The notes: generated by a model not told the origin, from the sequence alone. DNA of 60,774 nucleotides, filler included, from Hausera hauseri (GCA_046269625.1; 11 parts of 11 records of this genome joined end to end with filler, not necessarily neighbours in it); one strand, 5' to 3'; shown: positions 18,583 to 48,032, counted from the first letter of the whole stretch. A program made the numbers and translations.

Positions 18583-18957
18583 TCAACAGAACAGGCAACA
18601 ACTTTCCTATTGATAGCCTCAAATTCTTTAATTCGATCACTGAATGCAACAATTTCTGTTGGACAGACAAATGTGAAATCCAAAGAATAAAAAAGGAAAC
18701 CAAATAGCCGCCTTTAAAATCCGATAATTTAATATCTTTAAACGTTTTATTTATTACGGCTGTTCCTTCCAAATCTGGTGCTAGTCTTGAAATTTGAGCT
18801 TTTCTAATGTGGAGATTAAGAGTTCCATGAGATTTTAACTCCTTGGCATATACTGTTCCACCAGAAATTTTGCATCTTTCACAAAGTTCACCGGTTACCA
18901 AATACAGAAGAAAAAGCGCGATAACGCTATTCAAGACGTGTATTGTTTTTCCAGGAT
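18583..18957 (-). pseudogene. PRDX4: Peroxiredoxin-4 5' fragment directly after the 3' terminus of Gypsy copy 4
   Basis: Signal peptide plus GGTVY...KAQISRLAPDLEGTAVI...[10 protein letters not shown], then [14 protein letters not shown] after a frameshift. No intron is seen. Confidence 0.88.
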
Positions 18958-21455
18958 TGTGGGACATCTACTGCCGCGGCACCACATAACCCCCGTGGCA
19001 AAGATGGCATTACGTAAAGCAAAAAAGTAAAAAGGGAAAACTGCGAGAAAAAAACAATGTCTGTGATCTTCTCAGTTTTTGTATGAACTAGACTTTGAAT
19101 CTTAACGTTATTTTGTTCCCTGCTATATTTACTGAAGGTAACTGTCTTGCTTGTTTGACGTTCTGTTTAACGGCTTGCTGAAATGGTTGGAGTGAAGTTA
19201 TATCTTGATTTGATATGTGAGCAAGTTGAAAACTGGTCGGTGTATCACTTAGTATTTCTTAATGATTTTCTGCGGATTTTAGGGTAGCAAGTTGAAGTGT
19301 AGATATATTGCAAGAAGAATTGAAGGAGTCAAGAAAGGTTGGTGCAGACTCAGCCGAGGAATCCGGTGTGTCATTAACGAAGAACGTAGGTTTCATGTTC
19401 ATTATGTGCGCGTTTTGTTCTTTGCCGTTTTGGAGTATTGAAATTGTGTGTGAAGTAATGTTGAGAATTTTAAACGGTCCTAAATAGTGCGGTTGAAATC
19501 CAGATGTTGAGGGATGTTTCAACCACACGAACTCTGCTTTAAAGAGTGAGTCACGTAAATATGTTTCGTCGCCGTGTATTATTTTATAGAAAGAGTCTCG
19601 ACTTAGCCGGACGAAATGATCTTGTGCGGACCTAATGGTTCCGTCAGTCGTTGTGTTGTCTTAATTGGTCAGTTCAAAAACTGCACGAATTGTGGTGCCG
19701 AAGAGTGTTTCAGCGGGTGTGCAACCGATGGTGGTAGAAGGCGTGTTGCGCCACTCGAGTAATTTGAATGGAAGAATGGTAGCCCAGTTCGTATGTGTTT
19801 CGGCTAGCATTTTGGGGAGATTTTAAGAGTTCTGTGAAATCGCTCCAATAAGCCGTTCGGCTGGGGATGGTATGGAGTAGTAGGAATATGGTTCATGCCC
19901 AGTCGATTAACTAAGGATTTGAATAGGTTCGATTCAAACTGGAGGCTTTGATCTGTGATAATATATGGCGGTGAACCAAACCGACTAATCCAAACTCTTA
20001 TAAAGGCATCGCCGATGGAGTCAGTGTAGATGGAGCGCAAGGGAACAGCCTCGGGCCAACGAGATGCGCGGTCCATCGTTGTTAAGACGAACTGGTGGCC
20101 ATTATCAGAAGGTAATGGGCCAACAATATCTAGCTGAACTGATTCAAAGCAGGACGTACAGGGGAAATAGAATAATGGTGGCTTAAGATGCTTAGCTACT
20201 TTGAATTTTTGGCAAGCCATACATTGCCTAACCCAACCCTGTACGTCAGATCTCATTGATGGCCATGTGACGTGACGTTTGAGTAGACGGAATGTAGCCT
20301 TCGAAACTGGGTGATGCAAGGAATGAATATGGATGAATGCTGTTTGTTGAAGAGAAGGTGCCAAAATTGGCAAATGGTGCACAGGTGTCGAAGTGTCCAT
20401 GGCTACGCCATCAATAATTTGGACAGATTTATATTGTTTAAGTATTTCAGTAGAAGGAGGATTCTAAACCAATTGTTCTTTAGAAAAAATAGGCATGACG
20501 CTAATTGCACTAACCGATAGTGACAAAAAATCCGCTATTAAATTATCGGTGCCAGAAATGTGGCAGATTTTAAAGTTGAACGTTGACAAGTACGAAATAT
20601 GACGTTCTTGTCGAAATGATGGATGCTTCATGTTCATTACGTGAACGAGGGGCTTGTAGTCTGTTTGAATGGTGAAAGACTGGGCGATAAGTAAATGTGA
20701 AAAATGTTTTAATGGCTAAAACGATGGCCAGGAGTTCCCTATCGAAGATGGAATAAGGGCAGTCTTGTGACTGGAGCTTACGTGAAAAGAATTCTAGTGG
20801 TTCATTTATTCCTTGAGATATTTGATGGAGAACCGCTCCGACGGCTGTGGTTGACGCGTCGGTTGTCAGGATGAGATCGGCACCAGGTTTTAAATTAGCC
20901 AAGATTTCAACGGTTTTAAGATTATTGCGGAGCTCATCAAACTGGTTTAAAGGTTCTGGCGTCAAATATAAAGGTTTCGTCTTTGGTCTTGCTCCTAGTT
21001 GAGGGAAAGGAGCAGTTAACTGGCCGCAGTGTGGGACATACTTATGAACGAAATGCAAAGCTCAGAGAAAGCTGCGCATATCAGTTGTAGTTTTTGGCAA
21101 TTCGATATTTCGTAATTAGTGAATTCTATCAGGCTGTGGACTGTGACCGTCAGGCGTGATGATGTGGCCTAGGAAGTTGACTTTCTTTTGAAAGAATGTA
21201 CATTTTGCGAAGTTAACCTGTAAGTTCTTGTTGTGCCGGCGTTAAAAAACAAGTTTGAGGTGTTCAGCGTGTTGCTTAGGTGAAGATGATGCTACCAGTA
21301 TATCGTCGATATATGTGTAAGCGAATGGTAGGCCTGAAAGGATAAAATCGATATGCCGTTGAAAGGTTTGGGCTGCGTTCTTTAAGCCAAACTGCATGAA
21401 GGCGTATTCGAAGAGGCCAAATGGTGTTATTATCGCCGTTTTTGGATGTCTTCAG

Positions 21456-22499
21456 TGTGGTTGGCTGACATGTTTACCTTTTGTTGTGAATAGGTCTGAT
21501 CTGGGTTTACGATAATTGTTATACCACTGAGGGAATGCTTTGGTGACATTGATCCATTGCCGCTTTTCGGTGCACCTGATGAGGATATGTAACAATGATC
21601 AACGCCAAAATTCGGATCATCGCACGGTTTAACACCGATCATGAGATTACCGTTCAAAATACGTCCGTTACGCGATTGAGCAAAGACGGCGTGCATTCGA
21701 ACTTCAAATTGAAAATGCATCCAGTTGCCACTGTTGGGTATATATTTCTTCTGAATAACACCAATTTCCGAAAGGTATGATAGAATTAATTGGGATTCGG
21801 TTGATGAATAATTAAAAACTGTCACTCAGTTTTCCATAGTTTTATTTTCGTCTTCTGCCTTTGCATTAAAACGTTTATGACTATTGTAAAAATGACTTCG
21901 TTTTGAACTATTCAATATTGCCGGATACCGTGATAAAACGACTGAAGAATTGTCATTTTGGATCATTTTGCATGTCGGGGATTTATTCCAATTACTGGCA
22001 ATAGGTGGACCATTTCTTCGTCGACTGTGATGGAATGATTCTTGACGTGTGATATCTCTAGATTGACGAGTGTCCATTTGCCTTGTATTCAATGTACTAT
22101 TTGACAATTTTGATTGGTTTAATACGGATTCATTAGCAGATGATAGATTCATTGCTAATAAAAAATTTGGGGAAACGCCCTGCTGTGAATTGGAATTGCA
22201 ATCAACCAAACTGTCATCAAGTGGGGAAAATACATTCTTTCTCATTGTGCGCTCAGAAATTTGAAATCAGCAAATTCGGCAACTAATTACAAAAAAATCC
22301 GACAATCAATTATAAATTTTTTTTGATAATTATAGCACAAAGTACAAAAGTTTACATCACCTCCAAAGTCCGCTAAAAAGGAATAAATTCAACTACTTTC
22401 GAAATTCACAATTTATATTTTTTCCATATTTTAAACAAAATCCATTTACATAACGAGATCCACTTGCAGATCACCAATTGGGTGAATATAGGCACCACA
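21456..22499 (-). mobile_element. Solo-LTR-like unit TGTGGT...ACCACA with 5-bp TSD, carrying NUP35 sequence
   Basis: Splits RT cleanly (VAP|EDIQKTAIITPFG). Flanks are ttcag (21451-55) and tttag (22500-04). It starts with the same TGTGGTGCC as the post-PPT terminus at 18986. Confidence 0.85.
21470..22245 (-). pseudogene. NUP35: NUP35/Nup53 5' fragment (RRM), intron-less, with a premature stop
   Basis: (W>stop)VTVF...GNWMHFQF...NGRILNGNLMIGVKPCDD matches the Nup35 RRM WVTVFGF...GNWMHIRY...DGRIFGESIMIGVKPCID. Confidence 0.88.
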
Positions 22500-24768
22500 T
22501 TTAGGCGCTACTGGTATTTGGTGGTAGGCTTTTTCTAGGTCTAGAGTGGAGTATATTGTAGTTTTATGCAACGAATGTAAGATGTCTTTTATCAAAGGTA
22601 AAGGGTAAGCATCCATGATAGTAACATTTTTAAGTTGACGATAATCGCCGCATAGTTGGAATGTTCCATCTTTTTTGGGTACCACGTTAAGTGGTGAAGC
22701 CCAAGGTGACTTTGAACGGTGGATTATTCCTGCTTGTTGAAGTGACGTGAATTCAGATTGAACTGCTTGTCGGCGGCTTGGTGATAGTGGCCTGAGTTTT
22801 TGCCTGATTGGACGAGGATTCTCGGTGATGATGTGATGGAATGTCGAGCTCGTTGGTCTAAAAGTTGGATCCTTTGTGATCGTGTGGGAGCAGGACTTAG
22901 TTATGTATTGCTGGATTTCTTGACTTAAGGAGGCAAATGGCGTGGTTAGTAAATTAGATGGTTGATCAATGTCAGAACTGGATATGATGGATATTAAACT
23001 GTCTAAATCGTCTTTGTCAACGTTTTCTACTTTGCTACCATTCGATGGAAATATAAAATTATCAAAATCAGTAGTGCTGAAATACATATTCGCATCTAAA
23101 TTAGGTAACGATGTTTTTAATATGGGCCTGACAAACAAGGCAGGCTGCGCAACCGATGGAGAGTTATCTGTATACGTTGAATTTTCTTGACTGTTTGTAA
23201 CTAATCTACTGTGTATACAGTCTACTACGAGGTTGTAGAAAGATAAAAAATCGGAGCCAAGTATTGGTGACTGTGTGTCGGCTACGGTGAAGGTCTAGAT
23301 AAAAACGTCAGAAAAAGGCTGTAACATGAACGAGATTTTGGACGTGCTGCACACACGTAATGCTTGGCCATTGGTTGTATATAATTTCTTGGCTGACGGG
23401 GAAAGAGTTTTAACTTTGGTAGACGAAGGCAGAAGAGACACTGCTGCTCCAGAGTCGATTAAAAAATTAATCGATTGAGTGGGCTTAATTGTTATTAAAG
23501 TGTTTAGAGTAAATACGGTATAAGTACATCTGTTACGGTAGAGATATTTGCCTATGCCAACATGAGCCGAAACATCTGGCAGCTTTATCCGTTTTTTGGA
23601 GGTACAGGATTTAAGTTGTTGGAAACAGTAGGCTGTGGGAAATTGGAACGGCTGACGAAGGTGCAACCGGCAATGAAGTTGCGCGCTTTGGTGTTAAATT
23701 TATTATGATATATACAGACGATGTCACGTCGTCTGAAACTAGGCGCATAAAACCTACATCCTAAACAGAATTTATTAATATTATTTTTGAATTTGGTGTG
23801 ATAGTAACACACTATCGGTCGCGCAAGCGACATAGTAGGTCTAAAATTTTGAGACGAAGTACGGCTATAGCCCGCATCAAAACAATTCCGTCTCGGCATT
23901 GTCAGGGCATCTATTTTTGACGTGAGTAATGAGATTGTCTGATATATATTGGCGTTTTCGGTACGTAAAAATTTATTTGCTTGTTCAAATGTGATATTTC
24001 GTTAATCTGTTGTGTCATTGAAGTTTGTAGCGTAGCGGCGACTTATGGCGGTGATTGTGAATGTAATATTTCGTGACTTTTATCAGCTAATTGTGCCAGC
24101 TTTTGCAGTGTCTCTGTATCCTCGACTATTGTTAGGAGTGCACGAATGTCTCTCGGTAGAGACTGCAGAAAGTATCTGCGCAGTAAATCAGCGTTATTCG
24201 CCTGGTTGACACCCAAAGTGCGCAACTAAGTTAATGCGGTCTGAAGGAATTCGGAAGGTTTTAAGTTTTCTATAGTGTTATCATTAAAGTATTTGTAAAT
24301 AATATTGTCCAAAGACAGCTCCATGAATTTTAGGACTGAATTAAAGAGGGAACTATGTTAGGATCTCTTAATTACCAAAAATCTGAATTAAAAAAATCAA
24401 AAAATCGATCAGAATTCCAGTGACCTTTTTGAATTTGAAACCTTTGAGAGAAATAATGATTTTCCCAATCAACAAAAATGCCAAAAAGTAAAAATCGAAA
24501 ACGAGCATGAAGACCAAGAATCCAGCTAAACAAATTCAAAAACCGCATTAAAAAATAACAATCCAAACCGAAAAAGTTCAAAAAAACAAGCCAAAAAGCC
24601 ACAGAACAAAATTCAAAAAAAACTGTATAGGTCGCTGCTTTGAAATACTTCTGACAAGTTGGAAAGTTNNNNNNNNNNNNNNNNNNNNNNNNNNNNNNNN
24701 NNNNNNNNNNNNTTAATTAATTAANNNNNNNNNNNNNNNNNNNNNNNNNNNNNNNNNNNNNNNNNNNN

Positions 24769-25460
24769 CAATTGGGTATAAGGGTCAGAGTGTTGAAAGA
24801 TGTCCAGTAAGTTATGGATTGAGGCCTTTATAGAGTTTGGTAGAAGATAAAGTAGGCTATGGGCTTTGGATAAGGAGTCTGTGATACCGTTGGATTGTAA
24901 CCAGAGTTGATAAAAGTGGAGCCACGGTTTGCTGGACTTTTCATTATCTATAAAGTAGTCAGTACAATGTGGAGAAGTATTAATAGGATTTTTGTTTGAA
25001 GAATTTGCGTCGATTGAAGTAGGTGGATGATTTGGTCTGGTGTAGTAGAGCATGGGTATTGCCTTTTTTGTGGTGGTCGCCAATTTTGGTGTCAATGGTT
25101 GGCGAAGTGTTCATGCCACCACGGATACGGAGATGTATGTTGAAGCAAGTGTGATTTGAAAAAAAAGGTAAAGTTTCGTTGAGATGTATGATAGTACCGT
25201 GATGGCTAAGGTAAAAGTCGGAAGAACCAAGCAAGGAAGAAATGCAGGTCTGAAAGGTGAGAATGTGTGGATGTTTTGTATTGAGGGTGTAGATACTGTT
25301 GAAAAAAACAAAAATGAAAGTGGGTGCAGTGGTGCGCCTGGGGGCGTGATGTGGGGCCGACTCCGAAGCGCCATCCGACCGACCGCAGCAGGGTTGGCGG
25401 TCGGAACCTCCGCCTCGACGAAGCAGGCAGCAAAATGTGGGATAGCCGAGTTTTCCCACA
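24769..25460 (-). mobile_element. Ubl-Gag Gypsy copy 2, 5' end: 25-bp TGTGGGA...TCCCACA terminus (25436-25460), Ubl (25374-25115) and start of Gag
   Basis: FNIHLRIRGG|MNTSPTIDT, then KPWLHFYQLWLQSNGI...SDPY homologous to copy 1. One frameshift lies in a T-run. Confidence 0.85.
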
Positions 25461-26455
25461 AAGGTGCCGTCATTGCTGCTCGGCATTTCTGAATCGCCAT
25501 CATGACATCTCTAGGCTTAAGTGCATCGCGATAGTTCATAACAATCGATATGAATTTTTCTTTATTTAAGTCGGTTTTAGTTGTTTGGTTACCTTTCAAG
25601 GAGACACCCGTTGTGATTTGTTCGACCAATGAACTGACATACTTAAATCGTGTTTCGTTCAGAATTGGAGAATCTCGCATTGTTGCATGGTGTATGCTTG
25701 GGTACGGTATTGAATTTGTATGTATTTCTTTCAAACCAGAATTCATCGTTGTTTTAAATCGCGCTGACGCTGTAGGTGAGCTAATCATTAGAGATATTAT
25801 TCGATTGAGGTTAGAATAATATGGTGAATTCCTGAACAATAGATATTTACAAACGTCATAAAAGCATTATTAAAAATTATACACAAATCACACGTATCTT
25901 GTGTTGTGACTATGAAATACGCTATTGTTTGGTTCAACGATTGCCGTAGGCATTATCGACCTGGGGAATAATGCCAATTGTATTTGGTTTATTTTGGGAT
26001 AATAAACGGCTAATTGCTGCATTATCAACGTACCAACTCTAGACCCCGTATCGCCATCCATACTGTTAATGACGATAAATGCATGCGAATTATTCGTTTT
26101 TTCAGCTAACTTATATAGCCGCGGTGGGAATAGTCTTAGTAATCGTACACCAGAATTGAGACTTCGTCGAGCAAAACTGTTACCGGAATCTTTACAGTCA
26201 GTAATCATTGATTCTCTACTAGAAATATTTCGACATGCACCAGTCTTAAAATTATTTATGCATGTGGGCTCTGAATCGCTGAATATAGCCCTTGGATTCA
26301 ACTTACAGTGGTTTACTGATTTGGATAATACTGTCGTTCGGTCAAGTTCGCTAGTCAAATCATTATCTTTTAATGTTTTTAGTCCATCTAAATCAGTGGT
26401 GTGTTCAAGACACAATAATTTCCACAGTGCACTGGTGCACTGCACACCAAAATGG
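25461..26455 (-). pseudogene. Divergent alpha-tubulin, intron-less, 3'-truncated and frameshifted
   Basis: GVQ...LWKLLCLEH, PRAIFSDSEPT, TAIVEPNNS, YSNLNRII...TASARF, NYR...PRDV are collinear with alpha-tubulin. Confidence 0.88.
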
Positions 26456-26489
26456 CAGCAGTTGTGTATCCTTCGGTCACCAATTTCAC

Positions 26490-26680
26490 AGACACCAGAC
26501 TGCTTAGCATTAGTTAATACATCTTCAGATGTGTGCAGGAGATTTTCCATTTGTTTCACGGTGAATTATCAAACAGCAGGAACTCGGATATCAACATCAA
26601 GAAGCTGTGCGGCAATTAATTCAATATTCTTGATACCCTCGATTCGAGTCGATTCAATCAATACAGTAACATACCATTTC
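26490..26680 (-). pseudogene. AP3D1: AP-3 complex delta subunit internal fragment
   Basis: WYVTVLIESTRIEG...LIAAQLLDVDIRV...VKQM...GVCEI matches AP3D1 WYISILVELTRLEG...LIAAQMLDVAIRV...VSQM...GICEV. Confidence 0.8.
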
Positions 26681-26825
26681 GTTCAATCGGTTGATTGAAT
26701 CGTATCATTTATCGACAAAAGCAATTCGTATGTCACAGAAATTTTTGCGAAAATGGCCATTAACCATTGACAAATGTAATTAAGAAATCCAGGGCCGGAG
26801 TAGAAAAATGCTTTTGAATTTGCAG

Positions 26826-26913
26826 CGTATTTTTTGTATAATCTGTTCATCTGTTCCAATACAATAAATGTGATGACTGCATGAGGACCTATTCGCAGAT
26901 AATACGGCGTAAA
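26826..26913 (-). pseudogene. SLC25A11: C-terminal fragment of the mitochondrial 2-oxoglutarate/malate carrier, fused in frame after TRMT11 sequence
   Basis: FTPYYLRIGPHAVITFIVLEQMNRLYKK ~ FTPYYARLGPHTVLTFIFLEQMNKAYK. Confidence 0.75.
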
Positions 26914-26914
26914 A

Positions 26915-27830
26915 ATTTTCTGTGGATAATTAACATGACTGTAGTACAGATGTGGTCGATATTCCTTCGTCATGATTTTCAAACACTTCTCCCTTACTCC
27001 ATAAGGTGATCCGTTAGAATGACTTCGAATTTGAAACCTGTCCGCAATATTTTATCCAATTGTGACGAATCACCGATGAACACGTCACCAAAACAGGACA
27101 GAATAGCGTATTGTTAAAAATTGAGTTTTAAACATTTATCCTTCGATCTCCAGACCTCATCTGCCTTTGTGGATTTACCAAGTCCATGTGCGACGTTATA
27201 GTCAATATCTATACCAAAAACGGTAGCACCACAATGCCCAGAAACTACTAAAAAACTGCCAGTGCCAACAGACGGATCCAAAACGACATGGAATTTATCC
27301 ACTCGGCCGAGATGATCCATTAGAAATGATAGTCGAACATTCATGCTGATATTTCCAATGAACTGCCGTTCGGACAATTTATAATTATTAATCACCTCAC
27401 ACCGTTGACTGACTTTAACAAGTCTACCGTAAGACAGTTTGTCCGGCACGTCCACACACGACTTTTGGTTTTTTCGTATGGATAATCAAGAATCAATCCT
27501 AATTCTACATCTGGTTGTTTCAGAATCAAATTGATATTGCTTTTGCATTGTTTATGATTTGCAAATATTTTTTCAATTAAATCGACTTTTTCTTCAATTT
27601 TCAACCTTTTGTGGCGAGTTTCAACATTCGTACGATATAAAAGTTTTTTCGCAATTATGCCATTACTATTCATATCATTAAGTTAAGATATATCAAAGCA
27701 CAATTCTTTCATCGTATCAGCAAATGTCCAAACTAAGTAGGCGCATTGAATCGAAATGGATTTCTGACAACAATTTGTTGACTTTTCGAGATATACTGTA
27801 TGTAAGAAAATTCCCAAAGAATAAAGGGTT
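26915..27830 (-). pseudogene. TRMT11: tRNA m2G10 methyltransferase TRMT11 fragment, intron-less and frameshifted
   Basis: RQFIGNISM...LSFLM...VLDPSVGTGSFLV...GIDIDY, followed by PYGVRE. Confidence 0.85.
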
Positions 27831-28889
27831 CAAAAACGATGATGTAAAATTCCGAAATGAGATAAATATCAGCAATACAGTATTAAGTAAATGTACAAAA
27901 AAGATGGTCGATAAAATCATTATATTTGCATGACAGTAAAAAAAGTAATTGTTTAATTACAATAATAAAACAAAACTCTACAAAATATTGTCAAACACTG
28001 TTGGGTGATCAATTGGTGGAAAACAACAAACGATAACTTATAACCACAAAATTTGGTTGCAACTGTACCGAGAAAATGAGTCATAAAGGGCTGATAGAAA
28101 TAGTTGATCACTTGAAAAATTTATTTGACATAGAATGTTCAACAACGACTGTTGTTCGCGGTATTTGGAATCGTAATACATTATTTTGTAGAAGACGAGA
28201 GGATTCTTTCAAGACAAAAATCATCAACAAATTAAGATTTGAGACATGAACATATAGTCTTTTATTACAAACAAAAGAATTGAAATAATCAGAGATATTT
28301 TCTATGGCCCTTAGGGTGAATTATTGAATTTGTTAAAACTGTTGGACATCATAAATTCCATTGAAAGTTTGGACTAATAAATTAAGACCACAATAAACCA
28401 AATATTTGAGAATTTTTTAACTTTACGCAGAAATATTAACGTCACTCAATCCCAGAGTCAGTTCAATAGTTTTTCATCAATTGAGTAAATCTATTTACAT
28501 TGTTAAAGTAATTTGAAACAAAACTGTCGGAATCAGCTACAATTTTTGAAAGAAATTTACGGCGAATTGAGTTTTATTTGAGAATTGTCAAAGGCTTTTG
28601 AGAGCTTGCTGTAATCAGTGTTTTCAAATAAGAATGTCTGATTTTTTTAGTCAGTTTCTTTATGAGCCCTTGTAAGGTTTTGAAATTTTCTGAAAAGGTG
28701 CTTCCAATTTGCTGCCGCTGATTTTCGAATTGATGCCAGAGTTTTCTTACGTGAATTTATAGTGTATTCTTTCTGGAGAATTCGAAGTCGTTCCGATCCA
28801 TGTGTGCGTTGTAGTGTAATGACAATTTTAGCTCACATTGATATCCATTCTTTCTGCGATCGTGATATGACCAATTGATATGTATTTCC

Positions 28890-29050
28890 CATGATTGCAA
28901 ATCGAAGTAGATCGCCTTTAATAATCTTAAATATCATGGTAACAAACGGCCCAGTTAATTTGAAATCTCCTGTAAAAAATAGAAAATAAAAGCAGTTTAA
29001 CAAACTGGCAAATATGATAAATATTTCTTCTATTTTTCTGGCCAATTTAT
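28890..29050 (-). pseudogene. TRPV-channel (Nanchung/Inactive/OSM-9-like) S4-S5 fragment
   Basis: YFLFF.GDFKLTGPFVTMIFKIIKGDLLRFAI. Confidence 0.72.
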
Positions 29051-30130: not shown

Positions 30131-30276
30131 TGTAGAAGCACTAGTCTGAGATTTCGGTTCAAGGAAATTTTTAAAGCGAAAGGTCAAGCCCGCTTATGAG
30201 CTCGACGCGGCGGCAGCGGACGTCCGGCTGTGCACGACCAAATGGGCCTAAGGGCACAGGCCGCTGAGACACCACA
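30131..30276 (-). mobile_element. LTR 5'-terminus module (TGTGGTGTC plus GC-rich head) inserted in pPolB
   Basis: Minus strand TGTGGTGTCTCAGCGGCCTGTGCCCTTAGGCCCATTTGGTC matches the heads at 33075(+) and 35846(-). A possible end CTACA lies at 30131. Confidence 0.75.
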
Positions 30277-32815: not shown

Positions 32816-32904
32816 CTTCGTGTATAAAATATATAATTCCATAAAAACTTACTTCATATAAACATCCAACCACAATTACTGGTACTGTTTATGCAATAAT
32901 TAAT

Positions 32905-33074: not shown

Positions 33075-33160
33075 TGTGGTGCCTACAGCGGCCGGTGCCC
33101 TTTGGCCAGTTTGGTCCCTTTCCGACGCGTCGGGCCCACAGGCGGGCCCCCGATCTTCCG
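33075..33160 (+). mobile_element. LTR 5'-terminus module (TGTGGTGCC plus GC-rich head)
   Basis: About 42 bp near-identical to the inverted copy at 35805-35846 and to 30236-30276. Confidence 0.78.
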
Positions 33161-33229
33161 AATTGAGGATTCAAGAAAAGAAAACGAAACAGACAAAATC
33201 AAACGATAACCCCGGTGAATATCGCTCCA

Positions 33230-33932
33230 TTGAAACAATTATCCAATCATTGGAATTCGTAATCGTCGTGATAATCATTATGGATATATTTCAGTCATAT
33301 TTGTACGGTTTTCGAAAAAATGTCTGCACCTTTGTTAGACATGGGTTGTTGCTGGTATATTGTATAAGCGTCATTGTCAGTATTTACTATCCAGAAATAG
33401 TTTACATTTTAGGAGCTAGACAATTTATTCGACCGAATTTTGCATTGTTTCGTTCGACGTCGATGACAAAACTTTTAATTTCGATGTGCATAACTACCAA
33501 AGACATTCTAAGTGCATTTTTCTTGTTAGCTCTTGGATGATCGGATTTACCATTCGTGGAGTGTCGTTGTTTTTTAGTATGGAAACGTACACTGATGTAC
33601 AATACAATAATTTCTACGATGCGTTCTTCACATTACTGGTACTTCTAACAGCCAACAATCATGATGCAATGGTCGTTGTGTATAACAACAGTCGACTGTA
33701 TTTCATCTTCTTTCTGGTCTACGCATCCATTGGGATGTTTGTGTTCACGAACGTTTTCACTGCGGATATGTTGGTACTACGACGTATTGCGACTAGAGCA
33801 GTTTACGAAGTATTGAAAACTACATCAAAGGATATTGATGAGGATAGCGTGGAATCGGACATACCGCGACGAACTATAACGGATGTACCGATTGCTGGCT
33901 GGCGTAAGACGGCAACACTTGCTTCAGTGTAA
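33230..33932 (+). pseudogene. Two-pore channel (TPC2-like) domain-I fragment, intron-less
   Basis: RQFIRP...; FFTLLVLLTANNHDAM...YNNSRLYFIFFLVYASIGMF ~ TPC pore LLVLLTTANNPDVMIPAY. Confidence 0.8.
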
Positions 33933-34076
33933 ATATTAATTTTGTACTTGTTAACAAAAAAGGGTTGAAAGATCTTTTAAAATAAAAGCCATTCTTTTCT
34001 CAATTACTTAAAATAAAAATTCAACAGTGAAAATACACGAATTATTTTACATCAAGTCAGGAAATCGTTGGTGAAA

Positions 34077-35846
34077 TGTGGTTCCGAACTACACGCAACA
34101 AAGGCTCAAATATAAGGTGAAAACATTTCCAAAGACGGAAATAGAAAGCCTAGGTTTATAGAACGTAAACAACAATCAATCAGATGCATAAAATAAAATT
34201 TCATTTGAAGTGTTCGTATTCCATAAAAATTAGTGGCTATACTTATACGTTCTTTGCCAGTGTTTCTTGTTGACGTACATTATCAGTAACGCCAATTTTC
34301 CAAACATCTATTTCGTTTGGATTCGTCTCTACAGCCACATTCTCATCATTTTTTGACAAATTACCTAATAGGTTCAACACAGCCCGGTTTTTGACACAGG
34401 ACGAATCGACTTATCCAATTGAGCCAATGCATCCGTCAATATTCTTTTTGATTTAAATACTTTCTTTTATTGAAAAACAGCCTGTTGTTCTCTGAGTCAC
34501 ATTATGGAAACTGTGATTTTAATCTGAAGTTAAAAATATGCGAGTTGATGAATTGGACAAAGACAGTGATGATGATTGGAAAGACTGACGACTAGATGTA
34601 ATAGGCGAATATGAAATGCTGAAGGAATTACCATCTGGTTTTTTGAATATAACGATTCAGTTGATATTTTCGGATCGTCCGTCATTTTGGTGGACTCGTT
34701 TCTTTTGACATTTCAACAGAACATTTTCGGACAAATCTGTTTCGTTGTTTGACAAACTCAGTGCATCAACGGATGAAACGGAATGCGTTAAAGCCGGTGG
34801 TTTGTCGTAAAGAGTATTATCTTTGGATTCATCGGAATGTTCGGGTGATATGAAATTGATCAGATCGCTGTTGGAAATCACATCGAAATCGGTACAGATG
34901 ATGAGTCTTTTTACTCTCACCGATTTCCTTTTCTAGTATTGGCGCTGGTGTGTCATTTATTTCGGATAGGTCCGAGTAACCCGAACTATGAGTACTGTCG
35001 TCATCGATTTTGCATGTTTATTTCAACAAGCGGCCCGATGACCTCTCAGTGCCATCACTACAATGCACCTCGCCACTGAAGCCTCTCTCCGAATAGAATT
35101 TGTTTCGATTTTATGGGATTCAATGTCGAGTATCTTTATTTTGCTGAATCACAACTTGACTTAATTTTCTTATTCGGTCGACGTCTCTTTCGTTTTAATG
35201 GAGTGGGTTTTATGGATTCACTTTTTTAGTACTGTACTTTCATCCTATAACGTAGATAAATCCGATTTGGGATTTGGATTCGGCAAAATTTGTCGCTGAT
35301 GACTGACAAATGGTGTTGGGATTGTTGTCAATGAAGGTAGTGACTGGGATAAGATATACCCTGGTGAACTAATATTCATGCTCGGTGATGTTGTCGTGAC
35401 ATTGGACAATGATGATTTGGGCTTTGCTTGGATAGGCTTTAAACTGCTCATAGACATATTCCATATTTTTGTACTGGTGCATGTCGTTGTTGGTCTTTTG
35501 ATAGATATGGGAGCGTTGTGAAAACAAGTTACTTAACGAGTTAATTGACGAAGAATTGACTGGTGATGTGTTTACAGTACTGCATGACAAAATGGCAATT
35601 GAAGTCGTTGCCGCCGGAAGAATCGGAGTTACTGGAGATATGTTTGATGAACGAATCGTTCGACTTGATCCACTTGTTGGCGAAGCGATTGCTGAAATCT
35701 ACTTTTCATTGTTAAAACTACTGCATTGAGTTACGGCAACTTTCGACGGGAGTCAAACCCCAGTATTGATCCGACGCGAAGGTAACGGAAGCCCGGCAGC
35801 GCTTGACCAAATAAGCCAAAGGGTACCGGCCGCCGTGGGCACCACA
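34077..35846 (-). mobile_element. LTR-like unit TGTGGTGCC...GGAACCACA filled with unidentified Ser-rich host-like coding fragments
   Basis: Family head at 35846 and terminus at 34077, with sense-strand ORF remnants between. No matching TSD was found. Confidence 0.55.
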
Positions 35847-36339
35847 TCAGGGTACTTTACTTTGAATTCATCTATAGTGATGCCATTATTTATATTTTTA
35901 TTCACAAGGCCTGTGTTTAGTATTATGGACCGATAATATGCCTCAGTAAAGTCATTTGCTCCAAAGTCTACTCTATATCTATCCCTATAATCAATTCCTT
36001 GACATAGGGTTAGGGAACTAATATTGCAGTAATCAAATGCTGGACAGTATGAGGTATATTCACCACTGACTTTACTACTCTATGTGCAATACACAACCCT
36101 CAGAACTGATATAATGTCATGAAGAGCTATTATGGATACAAATTCAATAAGGTCCTTTATTATATTTGCCCAGGATATGAGGCTGTATGTGATGGAGTAT
36201 AAATGCAGTTTTACGAAGATCATATTGCCAATTTGACAGATTTCAAGTAAAAGAGAAGGAAGATCACCTTTAATGTGCAGTATCCTGCTTCGGCAGCACA
36301 GCCAGTTGTACAGACTGCTTTGACAACAAGGCCCGATTC

Positions 36340-36752: not shown

Positions 36753-36774
36753 TGTAGTTCCGACTTGTATTTGC

Positions 36775-37209
36775 GACGGGTCGATTCAAAACAAACGTAT
36801 GCAAGACTCGCCTCGACATTTTCAACTTTCATCGGATACCACTTGGAATCGTATTCAACTTTGATGATCTGGCCGACTTTCATTCGCACCATTGGTCGTT
36901 CGGGATAACTGTCCACATATTATTTGCCAAACTCCTGGGATTCGGCATTCATGCTTTCCCAATTGTCGAGATTTTGCTGAAAAAAGGTAGACTTCGTCTT
37001 GGGAAGAGTACTGAACGTAACCGTCATTGAAGAACACCTGGTACCGATAACTATAACGACTGTTTGGTGGTTCAGCAACGGTACAGGGAAAGTAAACAAC
37101 GTTGCCACTACCATCAGCATATATTGAGACAACTCGGGATCTGACAGGATAGTTTTTGCCAAAGGTCAACGCACTTTTACCAGCAGCCACTTGATATCGA
37201 GTCATGTTT
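36775..37209 (-). pseudogene. SETDB1: SETDB1/eggless tandem Tudor fragment, followed by the terminus ...CGGAACTACA
   Basis: SRVVSIY.DG...VAEPPN...VFFNDGYVQY and YPERPMVRMKVGQIIKVEY...VENVEASL match the SETDB1 Tudor domains. Confidence 0.85.
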
Positions 37210-39394: not shown

Positions 39395-39452
39395 CTGTGG
39401 GTTCTTGCAATAAATATAACACCAAGTCTACTACACTCAAAGCAAGGACCCA
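39385..39452 (+). promoter_or_regulatory. -1 programmed ribosomal frameshift signal (T TTA AAC plus downstream stem)
   Basis: The heptamer at 39385-91 is in the gag frame just before the stop, and pol is in the -1 frame. After a 6-nt spacer, TGGGTTCTTGC (39398-408) pairs with GCAAGGACCCA (39442-52). Confidence 0.8.
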
Positions 39453-42400: not shown

Positions 42401-43183
42401 ATTGTAGATCATTATTCAAGATTTCTTGAGGCTATTCCTTTATCTTCAACTACCTCTTCAACAATAATTAAAGCTCTAAATAACTATTTCTCTTTGTTTG
42501 GCATTCCAAAATTCATTCTTTCGGACAATGGTCCAAATTTTTGTTCAGATGAATTTGAAAAATACCTGAAAACACTTAATATAACACATAGAAAAACAGC
42601 TGTTTACCATCCCGCTTCTAACGGCCTTCTTGAAAGAATTCACAGGTTAATGAAAGAAAGCATTGCAGCAATTTCAGACAAAATTATAGAATGGTCAGAT
42701 GCACTTCTCCTCTTTAAATTACATTATAACAACTCAAAACATCAAGTTACACAATTCACCCCAGCTCAAATATTTTTTGGCAGAAAATTAAATATACCTT
42801 TAGAATCAGCACAGGATCCTAGATATGTGGAACACTTTGATAAATATATGAAAAACATTGAAAAAATATCAAACAATCAAAAAGAACAATTTGCACAAAA
42901 TGAAAATGAATTTTTTGCTGCACAGAGTAAACATTTAAAAGGACGCATTAAGCCTCAACTAAAAATTGGTGACACTCTTTTTATTAAGAATTTTAACCAC
43001 AAAGGAACTTTTCAAAAGAAATATGATGGTCCATGGAAAATAAAAACAATATTTCGAAATGATAATTATTTAGTGGAAAAACAAGAGGAAGGAAATATAA
43101 TAACAAGAAAATTCAATATAAGTGATATTTTTCTTCAGAAACCTTTGCGAAAAAATCTTGTAACAGAAAATAACACCGACTAG
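39397..43183 (+). CDS. Gypsy Pol (PR-RT-RNaseH-INT), near-intact with one frameshift near 40555
   Basis: LLDTGA, FRMVVDYR, LDLKSAFFQI, FIDD, CDAS...RELFAI, H...C-x2-C, IDIVG, SDNG, NGLLER. Confidence 0.95.
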
Positions 43184-44383
43184 CATTTGTTAACATGAAC
43201 CTTCGGAGAATATGTGCAATTTCATAGTCATTATTTCATTCTCCACACAAAATTTTTTCTCTCTTTTATTTTTCTTTTTGTAACAATGATATGATTCCGG
43301 ACATATTGTTGCTTACTTCTTGTTATGTCATATAGGCTGGTCCTAATGTTCATAACCCATTTTGGCATTTATTTTTTTGGAGATAACAAACAAAAAATAT
43401 GTTTAATAAGTTAAACGCACATGATAGATAATGACATGTGATTGTATAGCTCTATGGGTATTTTTTTTTCATATGTTATATTGTAAGGTGTAATATGTTC
43501 AACAAAAGGTTTTCTTTGACTGACCACAACATTTAAATTAATAAGATATAATTGAAGATTAATAAGATAATGAAATAATAAGAAAAAATCTATAATGTAT
43601 TCATATGTCAATTCTATTAATGTGAATATTCTGCAATAACATTATGTATAAATTGTAATATGTCAAAAGTAAATGTGTAAAAGATAATAGGTCATTTTTT
43701 TTCNNNNNNNNNNNNNNNNNNNNNNNNNNNNNNNNNNNNNNNNNNNNTTAATTAATTAANNNNNNNNNNNNNNNNNNNNNNNNNNNNNNNNNNNNNNNNN
43801 NNNATGACTGACCACGTTTTAAGAAGACGTCTGTAAAAACTTCGTCACCGTTGGCAAAATACCAGAAAATATAAGTAGTGAACATCAGAGAATGAAGTGT
43901 CTGGATGGTATGCGTAAATGGCCCGGAAGACAACCAACAGCAGATATGACTGGGGACGTTATTAATCGCGAGAGATGGACATACATAATGGCCTACGCTG
44001 CACAACATGATATATGATGATTAAAGTAAATTTAATTCTCCTTGGACACCAAGATGGGTACCGTACACCAAGTAGCCACACATTTCCTATAGTTTCTTTC
44101 TTAACCGGGAAACATTCGATCTCAGAGTAGACTTGAGACTTTATTAACCGCCCCAGTACGTTCCAACTATCTAGTTGTTGCAGTTTTGCCCGTATGATTA
44201 AGTGTCAAAACCAACCACCAATCATGTAGACACATAGCCAACAGGAGGCCCGTTCATTTGTGTGTCTGCTATTCTCTTGACTGCTCTGTATCTTGCCCGC
44301 CCCTTTAGCCGTAATTACTTCATGACATCGTATATCGAGTATGCGACCAGACCGCCAGCCACGACCTCCACGGCTAACGTTCT

Positions 44384-44800
44384 CGTTGAATAACCATTCT
44401 GTCTTATTTCTAAGTCAATAATATTGATCAAAAGGCATCTGCTATATTATGTTTTAAATACTGTATGTTTTAAATACTACCTTAGACAAAAACATGGTAA
44501 ACTGCACGTCAACTAGCATCACGCAACAAATAATCTATCACATCATCACAACTCGTGTCAATGTAAATACAAGCACGTGCGCGCGCAAGGACACACACAC
44601 ATACATACATATATGAAGTCCCGAACTTACCACATAAAGCCGTGCACCGGTTAAAGTCTGATTCCGTAAGTTATTTCCTACTGGCCGTGAAAACCGAACA
44701 AGACATCTTTATTTCATTCACTGCTTCCGTTAACACGACACACAAAACATAAACAAGCAACAAAATGTAAGCAGAGTTTATGCTGCGAACTAAATCAACA
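44384..44800 (-). mobile_element. Possible LTR of another family inserted into the Gag of copy 3
   Basis: Gag homology stops at TGTTGA (44800, minus strand) and a TCAACG end lies at 44384. No TSD. Confidence 0.35.
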
Positions 44801-45530
44801 CCAAAGAAACGCTGCATAATAATGTCCATGGACGGTTCGGTGATCTTTAGGACTGCATTAGAAAGATGTGAATATGGGTCTGGAAGTTGAACGATTTCAA
44901 TGATGTTATGGATGCGGGTTTTGATGCTGTTAGGCAGTAGGAAAAGAAGTTTATGGGCTCTAGTTAGAGCCGGTGATGTTATTTGCTTGCAGCCAAAGTT
45001 GGTGAAATTGCAACCAAGTTTTGCAAGAATTCTGGTTGTCGATGAAAAACTCGGTGCAGTTGGGGAAAGGAGCTGAAGAGGTAATAGGAGAGAGGTTGTT
45101 GGTGGAGTTAGGAGTGGGCTTTTGGAGTAGTATGACAGGTATGGATTTTGTGGTGGTTTTATCCGTGGTGTCAATGGTTGGCGAAGAATTCATGCCACCA
45201 CGGATACGGAGATGTATGTGCAGGCAAATGTGGCTTGATAGAAATGTTAGGGGTCCGTTGAGAGGTATGATAGCGTTGTTATGGGTGAAATAAATATCAG
45301 AAGAATTAAGTAGGTAAAAATGGACGTCCAAAAGGTGGGAATGTGTGGATATGGTGTAGTAAGGGTGTAAATATGTGTATTGTTAAAAAAAGAAAATAGA
45401 AGGGGAAGGAGTGGTGCGCCTGAAGGCGTGGTAGGGCCGACGCCGTCCCCTTGTTTAACTGGTGCTGCACGTTGTGTAGTGGTAATGTTCGATTGCGAAA
45501 CGATTGAAATGTGCGCATAGGAGACCTACA
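44801..45530 (-). mobile_element. Ubl-Gag Gypsy copy 3, 5' end: 56-bp TGTAG...CTACA terminus (45475-45530), Ubl (about 45440-45194) and start of Gag
   Basis: LHIHLRIRGG|MNSSPTIDTTDK, KTWLQFHQLWLQANNI, PDPYSHL...ITEPS; frameshifted. Confidence 0.85.
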
Positions 45531-46710
45531 TCTACCAACAACTGCACATTTACATATATGCGAAGGAATTTCGGGCATTATTTGGACAAATATTTTATCC
45601 TTTAAAGTAAACTGAACCGAAATGATTTCATTGTTTATGAACAAATTCAAATGGGGAGCAATACCATCGGGTGAGGCGAAACCTATTCGACCAATGGTAA
45701 TTGCGGTGTTCTTGTGGAAGGTTTTGGGTGTCGAATTGTTTATAACGGTCCGTTTGTCCTTTCTCTTTAACCTCATAAAAATGGTCTTATCTGCTAGTAG
45801 TGATATTGCCGTTCCTTTGAAACAACAAGATACAAAATACGGTATAACTTTCATCGTATCTTCCACCACCTTCTGGACTCTTTCAGAAAACAGATTAGGG
45901 TCTTGTGCTTTACTATCCCTGTTATCATCATGATCAGTACTTTCGACTGGTAGATCACCGTATAATTTGACAAATATCAGCAAACACAATTCTTCAACTT
46001 CGATCGAAAACTGATACTTCTTATCGTGGTTCTTTGTAATCTGATCATTAGCAACAGCAGCAGTCATACGCACTTGATTAACCACAGACAGTACGTACTC
46101 GTACACGTGACGAATGGGCATATATTTTCGGTAAAGAATCAGCAGACCGTGTAAAATAGTCGACGCTCTCGGAATTGAAATTAAATGTTCTTGCAGTTCC
46201 GATGAAGTTTCTGCTGCCTCTTTGGCGGAAACGAAATGAAAAATAAGTTCCACGCCGATTTCAGCGTCAATAACAATAGGTGCAGCTCGTTCCAATAAGC
46301 ATTTCGGCGTTTGTATGATACTTTTCTTTTTAGTAGCATCAAAGTTCAATTTCACCAGATGACCAGAAATGGTCTTTTTGACCTTAGAAATTATTTTGAC
46401 CACCACCAGTCGGCTGGAATTTGAATCGACAAATGTATCCAATTGGGATAGAAGTTTTTGGTCGCTACGCAATAGTCCAAAAAATTTCGTCAGATTATTG
46501 AGTTTATCTTTGTTGGGCAAAAATTCTGATATGCGTTTGGCTTTTTCTCGCAGTTTAATACTGAGTGCGTTGGGTAGTGCTTTCTCTGATGAAGATGCCT
46601 CCTTCAATAATTGGACCGTTTCACGCAGTAAATTGATTATTATGACTTGGTTTTTGAACATATAATGAATAGTTTTAGCACTCTAAATATTCGATGTAAT
46701 ATCGCTGCGT
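45531..46710 (-). pseudogene. PDS5: PDS5 cohesin-regulator internal fragment, intron-less
   Basis: LRSDQKLLSQL, KCLLERAAPIVIDAE and IGRIGFASPD ~ PDS5 LGDDEKLRSQL, KFLLERIAPVHIDSE and LGHISMLAPD. Confidence 0.82.
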
Positions 46711-46711
46711 T

Positions 46712-46870
46712 TGTGGCAGCAGTGTTTGAGAAAATTCTGCACTTGACGAGGATGGGCGTACACTCAATCAGTGTGTTGTCGTACTCCGCATGATTCGCAT
46801 TGCACCATACGCCGGTCATAGTACGGATATTCGCAGATACAATCAATAACGACATCGCTACTGGTGCTAC
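46712..46870 (-). pseudogene. PHD-finger fragment (PHF20/MLL5-type)
   Basis: VIDCICEYPYYDRRMVQCESCGVRQH. Confidence 0.75.
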
Positions 46871-47179
46871 ATTCCCGTTTCTCCGAGCCCGATAACTTCT
46901 GCGATGTTTTGCACGATTTAAATGGTGCTCTATAGATGGGTGTATAAAGTGTCAGAGAACGCAAATAAAGTATGAAATCTGGATTATAGTTGGAGTCACT
47001 ATCATCTGATGAGTCTGTACTGCAATCACTGTATTCTGATGCAGATACACACAGATCGTCGTGGACTTCAACAACCTTTATTTCTGGGTGGATAGTCATT
47101 TTCATTCAAATACTGTTTGCGCGGTGTACAATTTGTAGATGTATTATCCGTGTCCTGAGAACTGTTCAGGTCACATGGA

Positions 47180-48032
47180 CATAAGTCGAGCGAGGTGGAA
47201 TCTGTCGAGTCATTATACCTAGTAGAAATGGATGATCTATCGACGTTGGAATCATTAAAATAAGTGTGAAGTAGCGAAAGTATTGCCAAAAACAATTCAT
47301 GGGCATCGTGCTGATTGTAATCAGCCAAATCTTGGACGTGAGACCAAATTATATAGAGGAGATTTGTGAGTACCAATGGAGTTTGAATGGGTTTAAAGCT
47401 TTCGTGATTATGCGAATCATTTCGCATGCCAGGCGATCTCGACTCTGTTTAGTATTTGGACACCGATGCAAATCTAACAGGAGATAGTCCCGTAACCCAG
47501 GAGTACGAGTAAAAGCCTGAACGATAACATTGAGGAAACAGGTGTTGCCCATATTAACAAGCCATTTGGTCAGTTTATTACTATCGACCGGTGTAACGAA
47601 TTTCAATAGATAAAAATCTTTCATTTCAGGACGCCATGCTAAATCGAATATGACAAAATTGGGGAAATAAAGTTTACGGCATTGTTGAATAATTTCCCCG
47701 GAATATCCATGATATTGGACATCGCAACATTCATGGCGATAGACTTCACCATGTTGGAGTAAAACGTTTATTGCATGGCCTTTCTCTGTTGACCGCTCGC
47801 GAATGTGCCAATGTTGCCGAAAACCGGAAAAAATACAATGAGCGCACGCCATCACGTCAGAATAATCGGGGCATTTGAAATTCGTGCATCTTTTACAGTT
47901 GAAAAATACTTTTAATTTAAAGCCCTGATCTGATAAGGGAAATACGATCGTGCTAATTAAATTGCGAATTGCCAATTTATTTGAACGATTTTCAAGAAAT
48001 CTCGTTAAATGAACGCATGCCATAATTATCAT
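47180..48032 (-). pseudogene. USP22: USP22/nonstop 5' fragment (ZnF-UBP plus Cys box), intron-less and frameshifted
   Basis: MACVHL, ACAHCIFSG...H, LVNMGNTCFLNVIVQAFTRTPGLRDY, LADYNQHDAHELF. Confidence 0.88.

What the first reader, a model, noticed from the sequence alone, without database searches (positions are those of the whole stretch)
18583..48032. Gypsy family whose LTRs are only short conserved termini wrapped around captured, sense-strand host mRNA fragments
SEEN: one terminus type (TGTGGTG(C/T)C starts at 18986, 22499, 30276, 33075 and 35846; ...CYACA ends at 21456, 25436, 34077, 36753 and 45475) is repeatedly joined to a different host gene piece. All 14 identifiable fragments (NIPBL, PRDX4, NUP35, alpha-tubulin, AP3D1, SLC25A11, TRMT11, TRPV, TXNDC11, TPC, SETDB1, PDS5, PHD, USP22) are intron-less and lie on the same strand as the adjacent element terminus. 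The insertions themselves often sit antisense in their Maverick targets, so the strand bias belongs to the cargo. KNOWN: LTRs normally have a family-conserved U3-R-U5, and retroviral/LTR transduction normally places cargo between the LTRs. INFERENCE: the element has little promoter or polyA signal of its own and is transcribed by read-through of host genes, or template-switches onto co-packaged mRNA. Strand transfer would then build each new LTR as terminus + host downstream RNA + host upstream RNA + terminus, shuffling exons in successive rounds. I do not know of a described system like this.
Basis: partly seen in the sequence, partly recalled or inferred. Interest (0 to 1): 0.93.

Follow-up and report, generated by a model that had tools for sequence, protein, structure and literature searches.

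The report
Retrotransposon ends rebuilt from host mRNA
In this flatworm DNA, strings of intron-free host gene pieces sit exactly where a Gypsy retrotransposon's terminal repeats should be, likely because its reverse transcriptase hops onto host messenger RNAs while building those ends, which would make the element a continual shuffler of host exons.

Summary
The core observation holds, with corrections. The window is 11 unlinked contigs from a flatworm. A CsRn1-like Gypsy group with a ubiquitin-like domain before Gag carries host coding pieces at both LTR positions: 19 nt after polypurine tract plus TGTGGTGCC (PRDX4), directly before leader-gag (five named genes in C6, three in C9), and in a 1,044-nt terminus-to-terminus unit with a 5-bp target duplication (NUP35). 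Ten of 14 gene names were confirmed, all sense; 4.4 kb aligned without an intron-size gap; TRPV has an in-frame deletion. A public run shows the empty site of one insertion and 11-17% diverged copies sharing a gene-gene junction, so this is inherited, not an assembly error. Corrections: three starts share 42-95 nt, not 9; two of five 'ends' are 5-letter matches that need not be ends; NIPBL is unconfirmed; 33075-35849 is one insertion with two inverted starts. Most likely mechanism: template switching onto co-packaged mRNA around first strand transfer (0.55). Not shown: identical 5'/3' LTRs in one copy, absence of conventional copies, intron-bearing parent genes. mRNA capture by LTR elements is known, but between the LTRs; capture as the LTR body is a new variant.

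The parts
18583..18967 (-). PRDX4 piece from its likely first codon, one frameshift, cut by contig end
   Evidence: peroxiredoxin-4, E 5e-11
18973..18998 (-). Polypurine tract, 3-nt spacer and TGTGGTGCC start (3' LTR position); PRDX4 ATG 19 nt after the start
19262..24370 (-). Broken Gypsy gag-pol (two CHCC-type Gag motifs at 23809 and 23716, protease, RT, RNase H, integrase)
   Evidence: 65-70% like C3 pol
21456..22499 (-). 1,044-nt terminus-to-terminus unit (solo-LTR-like) inserted in RT, 5-bp target duplication with one mismatch; holds NUP35 (about 21460-22250) and an unnamed 5' piece
24769..25365 (-). Leader shared with C9, pyrimidine run, ubiquitin-like domain (HLRIRGG|M) and start of gag
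25350..25460 (-). Candidate short 5' LTR / U5 region, GC-rich, ending in GTCGGCCCCACA
   Evidence: similarity to C9 counterpart p=0.05, borderline
25471..26454 (-). alpha-tubulin piece, residues 11-337, 3 stops, no intron-size gap
26581..26697 (-). AP3D1 internal piece
   Evidence: E 1e-5
26833..26913 (-). Mitochondrial-carrier-like piece (reader: SLC25A11); weak
   Evidence: E 0.16
27165..27380 (-). TRMT11 piece
   Evidence: archaeal Trm11, E 0.0012
28755..29039 (-). TRPV (Inactive-like) piece with an in-frame internal deletion of about 75-80 residues
29664..30140 (-). Thioredoxin-like piece (reader: TXNDC11), many copies in run X1
30182..30276 (-). Start terminus with shared GC-rich block, abutting Maverick-type PolB
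   Evidence: PolB
33075..35849 (.). Single 2,775-nt insertion in a Maverick gene, bounded by two inverted start termini, 5-bp target duplication, empty site seen
   Evidence: (skip 2780, 5 letters fit both sides)
33075..34076 (+). Unit A: shared block (GTCGGGCCCACA at 33129-33140), TPC piece (33603-33770 aligned), unnamed 3' piece
34077..35846 (-). Unit B: shared block, 1.65 kb unnamed cargo, 11-nt end terminus
36753..37209 (-). SETDB1 Tudor-domain piece joined directly to an 11-13 nt end terminus, in Maverick DNA
44674..45445 (-). Leader, ubiquitin-like domain and gag start, 76% like C6
45795..46673 (-). PDS5 internal piece, open frame, no intron-size gap
46770..46850 (-). PHD-finger-like piece; weak
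   Evidence: E 0.003
47191..48023 (-). USP22 piece from Met1, one frameshift, no intron; best relatives are cestodes and trematodes
8727..13913 (+). Outside the stated range: near-complete family member (unnamed open frame fused to Ubl-gag, pol, polypurine tract 13885-13897, 16 nt of 3' LTR position)

Best explanation
These are copies of a flatworm CsRn1-like Gypsy retrotransposon in which sense, intron-free host gene pieces fill the LTR positions, likely because reverse transcriptase switches onto co-packaged host mRNAs around the first strand transfer and then returns to the element's U3 end. Shown: cargo directly after PPT plus start terminus, directly before leader-gag, and between two termini with a target duplication; multi-gene strings; diverged copies sharing a junction. 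Inferred steps: (1) the minus strong-stop DNA, carrying 11-110 nt of the U5 side, lands on a host mRNA instead of the 3' R; (2) RT copies it, sometimes to the mRNA 5' end, sometimes jumping within or between mRNAs; (3) it jumps back to U3, keeping 9-95 nt, enough for the 8-15 bp integrase site; (4) plus-strand transfer would copy the new LTR to both ends; (5) later cycles add pieces, and recombination or direct integration leaves solo units. The cargo then appears to decay neutrally.
For: Position: PRDX4 ATG 19 nt after PPT+start; five named genes before the leader in C6 and three in C9 (24, 37, 70, 71, 74); 1,044-nt unit with target duplication. RNA origin: 10 of 10 sense; 4,368 nt aligned without an intron, against about 15 expected at the 289-bp mean exon of Gyrodactylus (PMC4040987 passage; P about 3e-7, 0.013 even at one intron per kb). 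Switching: short internal pieces, in-frame TRPV deletion, PRDX4 and USP22 starting at or near Met1, variable length of retained ends. Real and inherited: empty site with 5-letter overlap; records 5 and 6, 11% and 17% different from the window, span the USP22/PHD boundary; cargo depth 20-70 in C9 and about 500 over the thioredoxin-like piece, where single listed contigs have 6-20. 6 of 25 differences in PDS5 synonymous, neutral expectation 0.29. Integrase needs only the terminal 8-15 bp (PMC3601003 passage).
Against: No contig holds both LTRs of one copy, so 'LTR' is inferred from position. C6 and C9 may keep a complete 100-110 nt LTR with the cargo outside it (p=0.05), and unit A has an end-like motif 66 nt after its start. 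The ubiquitin-like core has summed depth about 8,900 against about 135 for the adjoining cargo: most relatives have not been seen at their ends and could be conventional; short-read contigs favour copies with unique cargo. No intron-bearing parent gene was detected in run X1 (0 of 8 listed joints; most loose ends not shown). No standard primer-binding site was found, so step 1 is not anchored. The two-start insertion looks like a TIR element.
Confidence: 0.55

Rival explanations
1. The element has an intrinsic very short LTR (about 65-110 nt) and is transcribed through from, and into, host genes; non-homologous strand transfer then builds old LTR + downstream RNA + upstream RNA + old LTR.
For: Unit A has a start and an end-like motif 66 nt apart, followed by cargo; C6 and C9 have cargo followed by a candidate 100-110 nt LTR; USP22 and PRDX4 include mRNA 5' ends; the Ubl frame has no ATG of its own in the three copies.
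Against: 18986 and 22499 keep only 9-14 nt, 34077 and 36753 only 11-13 nt; small internal pieces and an in-frame deletion need switching anyway; insertions seen here are in Mavericks and in another Gypsy, not in host genes.
Confidence: 0.15
2. Ordinary LTR-mediated retroposition with tiny LTRs: cargo is internal to non-autonomous TRIM-like units, and the gag-pol copies simply recombined with or landed next to them.
For: Multi-gene, partial, sense retrocopies re-amplified as non-autonomous units are documented (PMC5131818 passages); units A, B and 30276 look like short LTR + 30 nt + cargo.
Against: PRDX4 follows the PPT and a 14-nt start of a pol-bearing copy; B and the SETDB1 unit end in 11-13 nt with no PPT or second block before them; two or three separate subfamilies have cargo flush against the leader.
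Confidence: 0.15
3. Non-autonomous DNA transposons (Ginger/Pack-TIR-like) with TGT...ACA inverted ends captured the pieces.
For: 33075-35849 has 43-bp inverted ends 86% alike, 5-bp duplication and empty site (20); Ginger ends follow TGTNR with 40-270 bp TIRs (PMC2836005 passages).
Against: The same start follows a PPT in a pol-bearing copy; the end motif precedes leader-gag; the other complete unit has only 6-bp inverted ends; Ginger duplications are 4 bp at CCGG/CCGT or RTATAY (5 bp only for TDD); no transposase without RT was found; sense and intron-free bias points to RNA.
Confidence: 0.07
4. The host has intron-poor genes and the cargo is genomic DNA picked up by deletion, recombination or insertion next to gene copies.
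For: Parent genes not seen; the closest PDS5 relative lies on a contig barely longer than its coding sequence (5,959 nt for 1,912 aa; could be a transcript); single-depth AT-rich DNA lies upstream of USP22.
Against: Strict sense bias; tight gene-to-gene junctions; flatworm genes normally carry introns (94, 64).
Confidence: 0.06
5. Assembly or amplification chimeras.
For: Short contigs; no listed record spans a whole unit (20, 44); run X1 may be the source sample; one junction is an inversion.
Against: Target duplications, empty site, junctions at integrase-type CA ends, stops and frameshifts of old age, diverged copies with the same junction.
Confidence: 0.02

Closest known systems
LTR-mediated retroposition by template switching (Tan et al. 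2016, PMC5131818; Ty1 captures; maize Bs1 as cited there)
   Same: Partial, multi-gene retrocopies joined to LTR-element DNA and re-amplified as non-autonomous units; proposed switching inside the particle.
   Different: There the cargo replaces part of the internal ORFs between normal LTRs (passages; 'within the LTR' 0 occurrences). Here it sits at the LTR positions, beside near-complete gag-pol, in several subfamilies and at high density (at least 8 units in 4 contigs).
CsRn1 clade of Ty3/Gypsy (CsRn1, PwRn1, AgCR; PMC2582038)
   Same: Flatworm host, CX2HX9CX3C Gag signature, PR-RT-RH-IN order, TGT...ACA ends, PPT.
   Different: CHCC motif doubled; ubiquitin-like domain before Gag; no tRNA-Trp PBS; 5-bp rather than 4-bp duplications; no conserved 146-381 bp LTR seen.
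BARE-2 and Veju TRIM (as reviewed in PMC13317346)
   Same: Abnormal template switching placed foreign sequence into an LTR region, creating a new promoter class.
   Different: One-off capture of another retrotransposon's or unknown DNA, not repeated capture of many host mRNAs.
Ginger1/Ginger2 DNA transposons and Pack-TIR elements (PMC2836005; PMC13317346)
   Same: TGTNR ends; the 33075-35849 unit has inverted ends around gene pieces.
   Different: Target duplication length and site differ; ends are tied to a PPT and to RT-bearing gag-pol; cargo looks spliced and strand-biased.
Retroviral read-through transduction of cellular genes (recalled, no paper read; one search returned none)
   Same: Host mRNA co-packaged and joined by non-homologous recombination.
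   Different: Cargo normally ends up between intact LTRs.

Membership tests
Ty3/Gypsy LTR retrotransposon | gag, then protease-RT-RNase H-integrase | tested here: met
   RT, RNase H, integrase in this order by Pfam in C5 and C3; protease motif read by eye
Ty3/Gypsy LTR retrotransposon | Polypurine tract followed by a TG terminus | tested here: met
   C5 18987-18998 and C3 13885-13897
Ty3/Gypsy LTR retrotransposon | Two direct-repeat LTRs, near-identical within a copy | not testable with these tools
   No contig holds both; no genome held
CsRn1 clade | Gag CX2HX9CX3C signature | tested here: met
   Twice each in C3 (10400, 10493) and C5 (23809, 23716; last one degenerate); definition
CsRn1 clade | tRNA-Trp PBS TGGTGA(G/C)CCCG | tested here: not met
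   No match with 0-1 mismatch in the window; 16 with two mismatches vs 10.9 expected, none sense before gag
CsRn1 clade | 4-bp target duplication | tested here: not met
   Both measurable insertions fit 5 bp
CsRn1 clade | RT tree places it in the clade | not tested
   No reference RT sequences were available from the tools
LTR-mediated retrocopy (Tan 2016 type) | Cargo replaces internal ORF sequence between LTRs | tested here: not met
   Cargo lies after PPT+start or before leader-gag in the gag-pol copies; non-coding units are ambiguous
LTR-mediated retrocopy (Tan 2016 type) | Intron loss against the parent gene | tested here: inconclusive
   No intron-size gap against orthologs; parent genes not identified in run X1 (44)
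LTR-mediated retrocopy (Tan 2016 type) | Microsimilarity at switch points | not testable with these tools
   Needs parent nucleotide sequences
LTR-mediated retrocopy (Tan 2016 type) | Secondary amplification of chimeras | tested here: met
   Diverged copies share the USP22/PHD boundary; high depth over the thioredoxin-like and SETDB1 pieces
Ginger DNA transposon | 40-270 bp TIRs starting TGTNR | tested here: inconclusive
   Met for 33075-35849 (43 bp); not met for 21456-22499 (6 bp)
Ginger DNA transposon | 4-bp duplication at CCGG/CCGT or RTATAY | tested here: not met
   5-bp duplications at other sequences (definition)
Ginger DNA transposon | Integrase-like transposase without RT | tested here: not met
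   All integrase hits in the scanned ORFs are in RT-bearing pol

The most novel reading that the evidence does not exclude
A whole Gypsy lineage has given up a fixed LTR: it keeps only integrase-binding tips, refills the LTR body with host mRNA in every subfamily, takes its polyA signal and perhaps its promoter from that cargo, and uses a ubiquitin-like domain so that host proteases free Gag from whatever frame is fused upstream. It would be a standing exon-shuffling machine and would carry host-like decoys against silencing.
Probability: 0.33. Interest if true: 0.92.

Novelty: new variant of a known kind. Interest (0 to 1): 0.74.

Why it matters
LTRs are thought to be the element's own promoter, polyA signal and strand-transfer homology. 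A family whose LTR positions are filled with changing host mRNA would show that only the integrase tips are indispensable and would give hundreds of natural records of RT switching onto cellular RNA. In an animal, five or more genes chained in one unit and then amplified is exon shuffling on a scale so far linked with Helitrons and Pack-MULEs in plants. If the host is a neodermatan (not settled), this happens in a lineage that has lost piwi (PMC4040987 passage), and host-matching cargo could affect small-RNA silencing of both element and gene. It would also corrupt gene annotation and repeat masking in such genomes.

Tried and rejected
No genome is held, so the genome-wide LTR comparison could not be run. 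One run holds C7 (X1, 0.45 of words); no RNA holder listed. Relatives: none in viral contigs with the C3 integrase or in metagenome contigs with the Ubl-gag alignment; no longer protein matched the Ubl-gag alignment at E 0.01 (59, weak evidence). No tRNA or Rfam family in the terminal blocks or leaders; folding z-scores unremarkable in 7 of 8 stretches, so a ribozyme was dropped. A-box/B-box-like motifs in the C7 blocks were picked after looking and stay a hint. A recalled likeness of the leader to the complement of an initiator-tRNA half was not testable and was not used. Starts do not align significantly with the C6/C9/C3 leaders except an 11-nt match (p=0.02 among 18 tests), and ends do not align with starts beyond the short motif. 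NIPBL not found; unit B cargo and the 1.2 kb in mid-C6 unnamed. PDS5 could not be traced by tblastn nearer the leader than 45795. Selection on cargo not seen. No close parent for the tubulin piece (best 33-40% among 150 listed). One search did not list loose ends at the leader/cargo boundary (6 of 160 shown). Three look-ups in earlier findings returned nothing. Literature searches found no description of host mRNA as LTR body; others returned 0 papers; subscription journals are largely not covered.


Full report
Setting. The window is not one locus: it is 11 contigs of 4-8 kb joined by spacers, and no genome is held. The finding spans four of them (C5, C6, C7, C9); a fifth (C3, 8727-13913) holds a near-complete relative. 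The host is a flatworm: the USP22 piece has 10 of 10 listed hits in cestodes and trematodes, mostly 34-40% identical. The class is not settled. The contigs are rich in Maverick-type DNA (PolB by Pfam in C2 and C4; 74% like C7; the capsid label for the 33075/35850 flanks is by eye). A Maverick expansion is reported in Dugesia (bioRxiv 10.64898/2025.12.11.693146, passages), which shows only that such genomes exist.

The element. C3 and C5 carry RT, RNase H and integrase and a doubled CX2HX9CX3C Gag motif, the CsRn1 signature (PMC2582038, passages). C3, C6 and C9 share a ubiquitin-like stretch ending HLRIRGG|M before Gag (the ubiquitin likeness is recalled, Pfam gave no hit). The copies are only 65-76% alike, so they are separate subfamilies. 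Two CsRn1 features fail: no tRNA-Trp PBS and 5-bp rather than 4-bp duplications. It works like a Gypsy element and is CsRn1-like, but I do not file it as a plain member.

Where the host pieces sit. (i) C5: pol, PPT, 3-nt spacer, TGTGGTGCC, and 19 nt later the ATG of PRDX4: cargo in the 3' LTR position. (ii) C6: TRPV, TRMT11, a weak carrier-like piece, AP3D1 and alpha-tubulin in one 3.6-kb sense string before leader-Ubl-gag. (iii) C9: USP22 from Met1, a weak PHD piece and PDS5 in the same position. (iv) 22499-21456: 1,044 nt with NUP35 between two termini, inside RT, with a 5-bp duplication matching at 4 of 5 (chance 0.016). (v) C7: three starts followed by a thioredoxin-like piece, TPC and unnamed DNA, and two ends, one fused directly to SETDB1 coding sequence.

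The three C7 starts share 42-95 nt, GC 60-70% against 37-39% for cargo, so the termini are not all short. The 'ends' at 25436 and 45475 rest on five letters expected 1.7 times per kb; the stretch C6 and C9 clearly share begins nearer gag at a GTCGGCCC(C/T)AC motif resembling the ends at 34077 and 36753 (motif chosen after looking). The 80-90 nt upstream of it are borderline alike in C6 and C9 (p=0.05), so a 100-110 nt short LTR may survive there. NIPBL was not confirmed. The starts at 33075(+) and 35846(-) bracket one 2,775-nt insertion: contigs of run X1 skip 2,780 letters with 5 fitting both sides. Inside it unit B's end is joined head-on to unit A's cargo. My inference is that one cDNA end integrated into another before the pair inserted by two U3 ends; the 3 extra letters beyond 35846 match the spacer after the PPT in C3. 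A TIR transposon is the rival reading.

Is it RNA-derived? Ten of 10 firm pieces are sense (p=0.001); by unit, 6 of 6, or 7 of 7 with the thioredoxin-like piece (p=0.008). 228 ORFs on both strands of the four contigs gave no credible antisense host hit. Aligned stretches total 4,368 nt with no intron-size gap; about 15 introns would be expected at the 289-bp mean exon of Gyrodactylus salaris (PMC4040987, passages), P about 3e-7, or 0.013 at one intron per kb (crude Poisson, some lengths rounded). The USP22 break is a frameshift with overlapping alignments, not an intron. TRPV jumps in frame from about residue 541 to 620 of Inactive. Against this, no parent gene with introns showed up: none of the 8 joints is an intron, and only 6 of 160 loose ends were displayed. 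Intron loss is therefore inferred from orthologs, not shown.

Is it real and inherited? Run X1 holds 0.45 of C7's words and may be the source, so it is not counted as independent. It still shows the empty site, and in C9 it holds other copies: records 11% and 17% different from the window span the USP22/PHD boundary, cargo depth is 20-70 where single listed contigs have 6-9, and one contig of depth 260 matches the USP22 5' part. The thioredoxin-like cargo has summed depth about 500 and SETDB1 about 146. Summed depth is a rough guide only, but the chimeras evidently multiply as units. Differences in PDS5 are 6 of 25 synonymous against 0.29 expected (only the 25 listed positions were used): neutral. 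The Ubl core reaches depth about 8,900 while the adjoining cargo has about 135, so the ends of most relatives are unseen and may be conventional; short-read contigs also favour copies with unique cargo.

Mechanism. The best fit (0.55) is template switching around first strand transfer: strong-stop DNA with a short U5 side lands on a co-packaged mRNA, RT copies and hops between mRNAs, then returns to U3 keeping 9-95 nt, enough for the 8-15 bp that integrase reads (PMC3601003, passages). All of these steps are inferred. Pure read-through (0.15) explains the 5'-end pieces and the possible intact short LTRs but not the small internal pieces. Internal capture between tiny LTRs (0.15) does not explain PRDX4 after the PPT. 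DNA-level capture (0.07 TIR, 0.06 intron-poor host) and artefact (0.02) fit least. The primer is unknown; Rfam and ARAGORN found nothing.

Comparison and novelty. Template-switch capture of several mRNAs by LTR elements is known in animals, with cargo replacing internal ORFs (PMC5131818, passages). Foreign sequence entering an LTR is known as a single event in BARE-2 (PMC13317346, passages). Ginger features are from PMC2836005 (passages). Searches (listings only for papers not named here; no supplements read) gave no case of host mRNA repeatedly forming the LTR body, nor of a Ubl-Gag Gypsy; much subscription literature is not covered. No sequence relatives were found. Verdict: a real, unusual new variant of LTR-mediated retroposition, interest 0.74. 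The bold version, a lineage with no fixed LTR at all, is open at about one in three and can be decided by one long-read assembly.

Noticed in passing
window:25114-25310, 45190-45382, 9339-9545: Ubiquitin-like domain ending RGG directly before the Gag Met, with no ATG of its own, in three subfamilies; in C3 an unnamed upstream frame runs into it without a stop (1 of 3 copies in frame, chance level). Host deubiquitinases or a spliced-leader AUG could be involved (speculation).
   Followed up: partly
window:25471-26454: The tubulin piece is only about 33% identical to any tubulin yet has 3 stops and no frameshift in 328 codons; neutral decay from a typical alpha-tubulin would be expected to give more, so the parent may be a divergent paralog or the frame was kept open.
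   Followed up: partly
window:35748-35818, 33103-33116, 30236-30249: A-box-like motif in all three C7 blocks and a B-box-like motif in unit B; possible internal Pol III promoter. Patterns chosen after looking; Rfam and ARAGORN negative.
   Followed up: partly
window:29181-37209: Four cargo units within 8 kb of Maverick DNA, whose summed depth reaches 1e5-4e5 in run X1; possible targeting of Mavericks or an assembly bias.
   Followed up: no
window:47868-48100: A contig of depth about 260 matches the USP22 5' part at lower identity: probably another amplified subfamily carrying the same gene piece. Upstream (48101-48436) depth is only about 6 and a splice-acceptor-like run lies near 48100.
   Followed up: no
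window:1878-3944: 689-aa intron-free ORF with a signal-peptide-like start and four 228-nt repeats separated by KR sites; looks like a secreted peptide precursor; no Pfam hit.
   Followed up: no
window:38446-43180: A different, AT-rich Gypsy with gag, protease and an 889-aa open pol frame, no CHCC motif and no host cargo seen.
   Followed up: no
window:60191-60592: TBP-like ORF (Pfam E 5e-8) in C11; C11 also has a 184-nt inverted repeat at 57001-57184 and 59500-59683 around 2.3 kb of unnamed DNA.
   Followed up: no
window:7920-8198: RING-finger ORF inside Maverick-like DNA between two PolB remnants.
   Followed up: no
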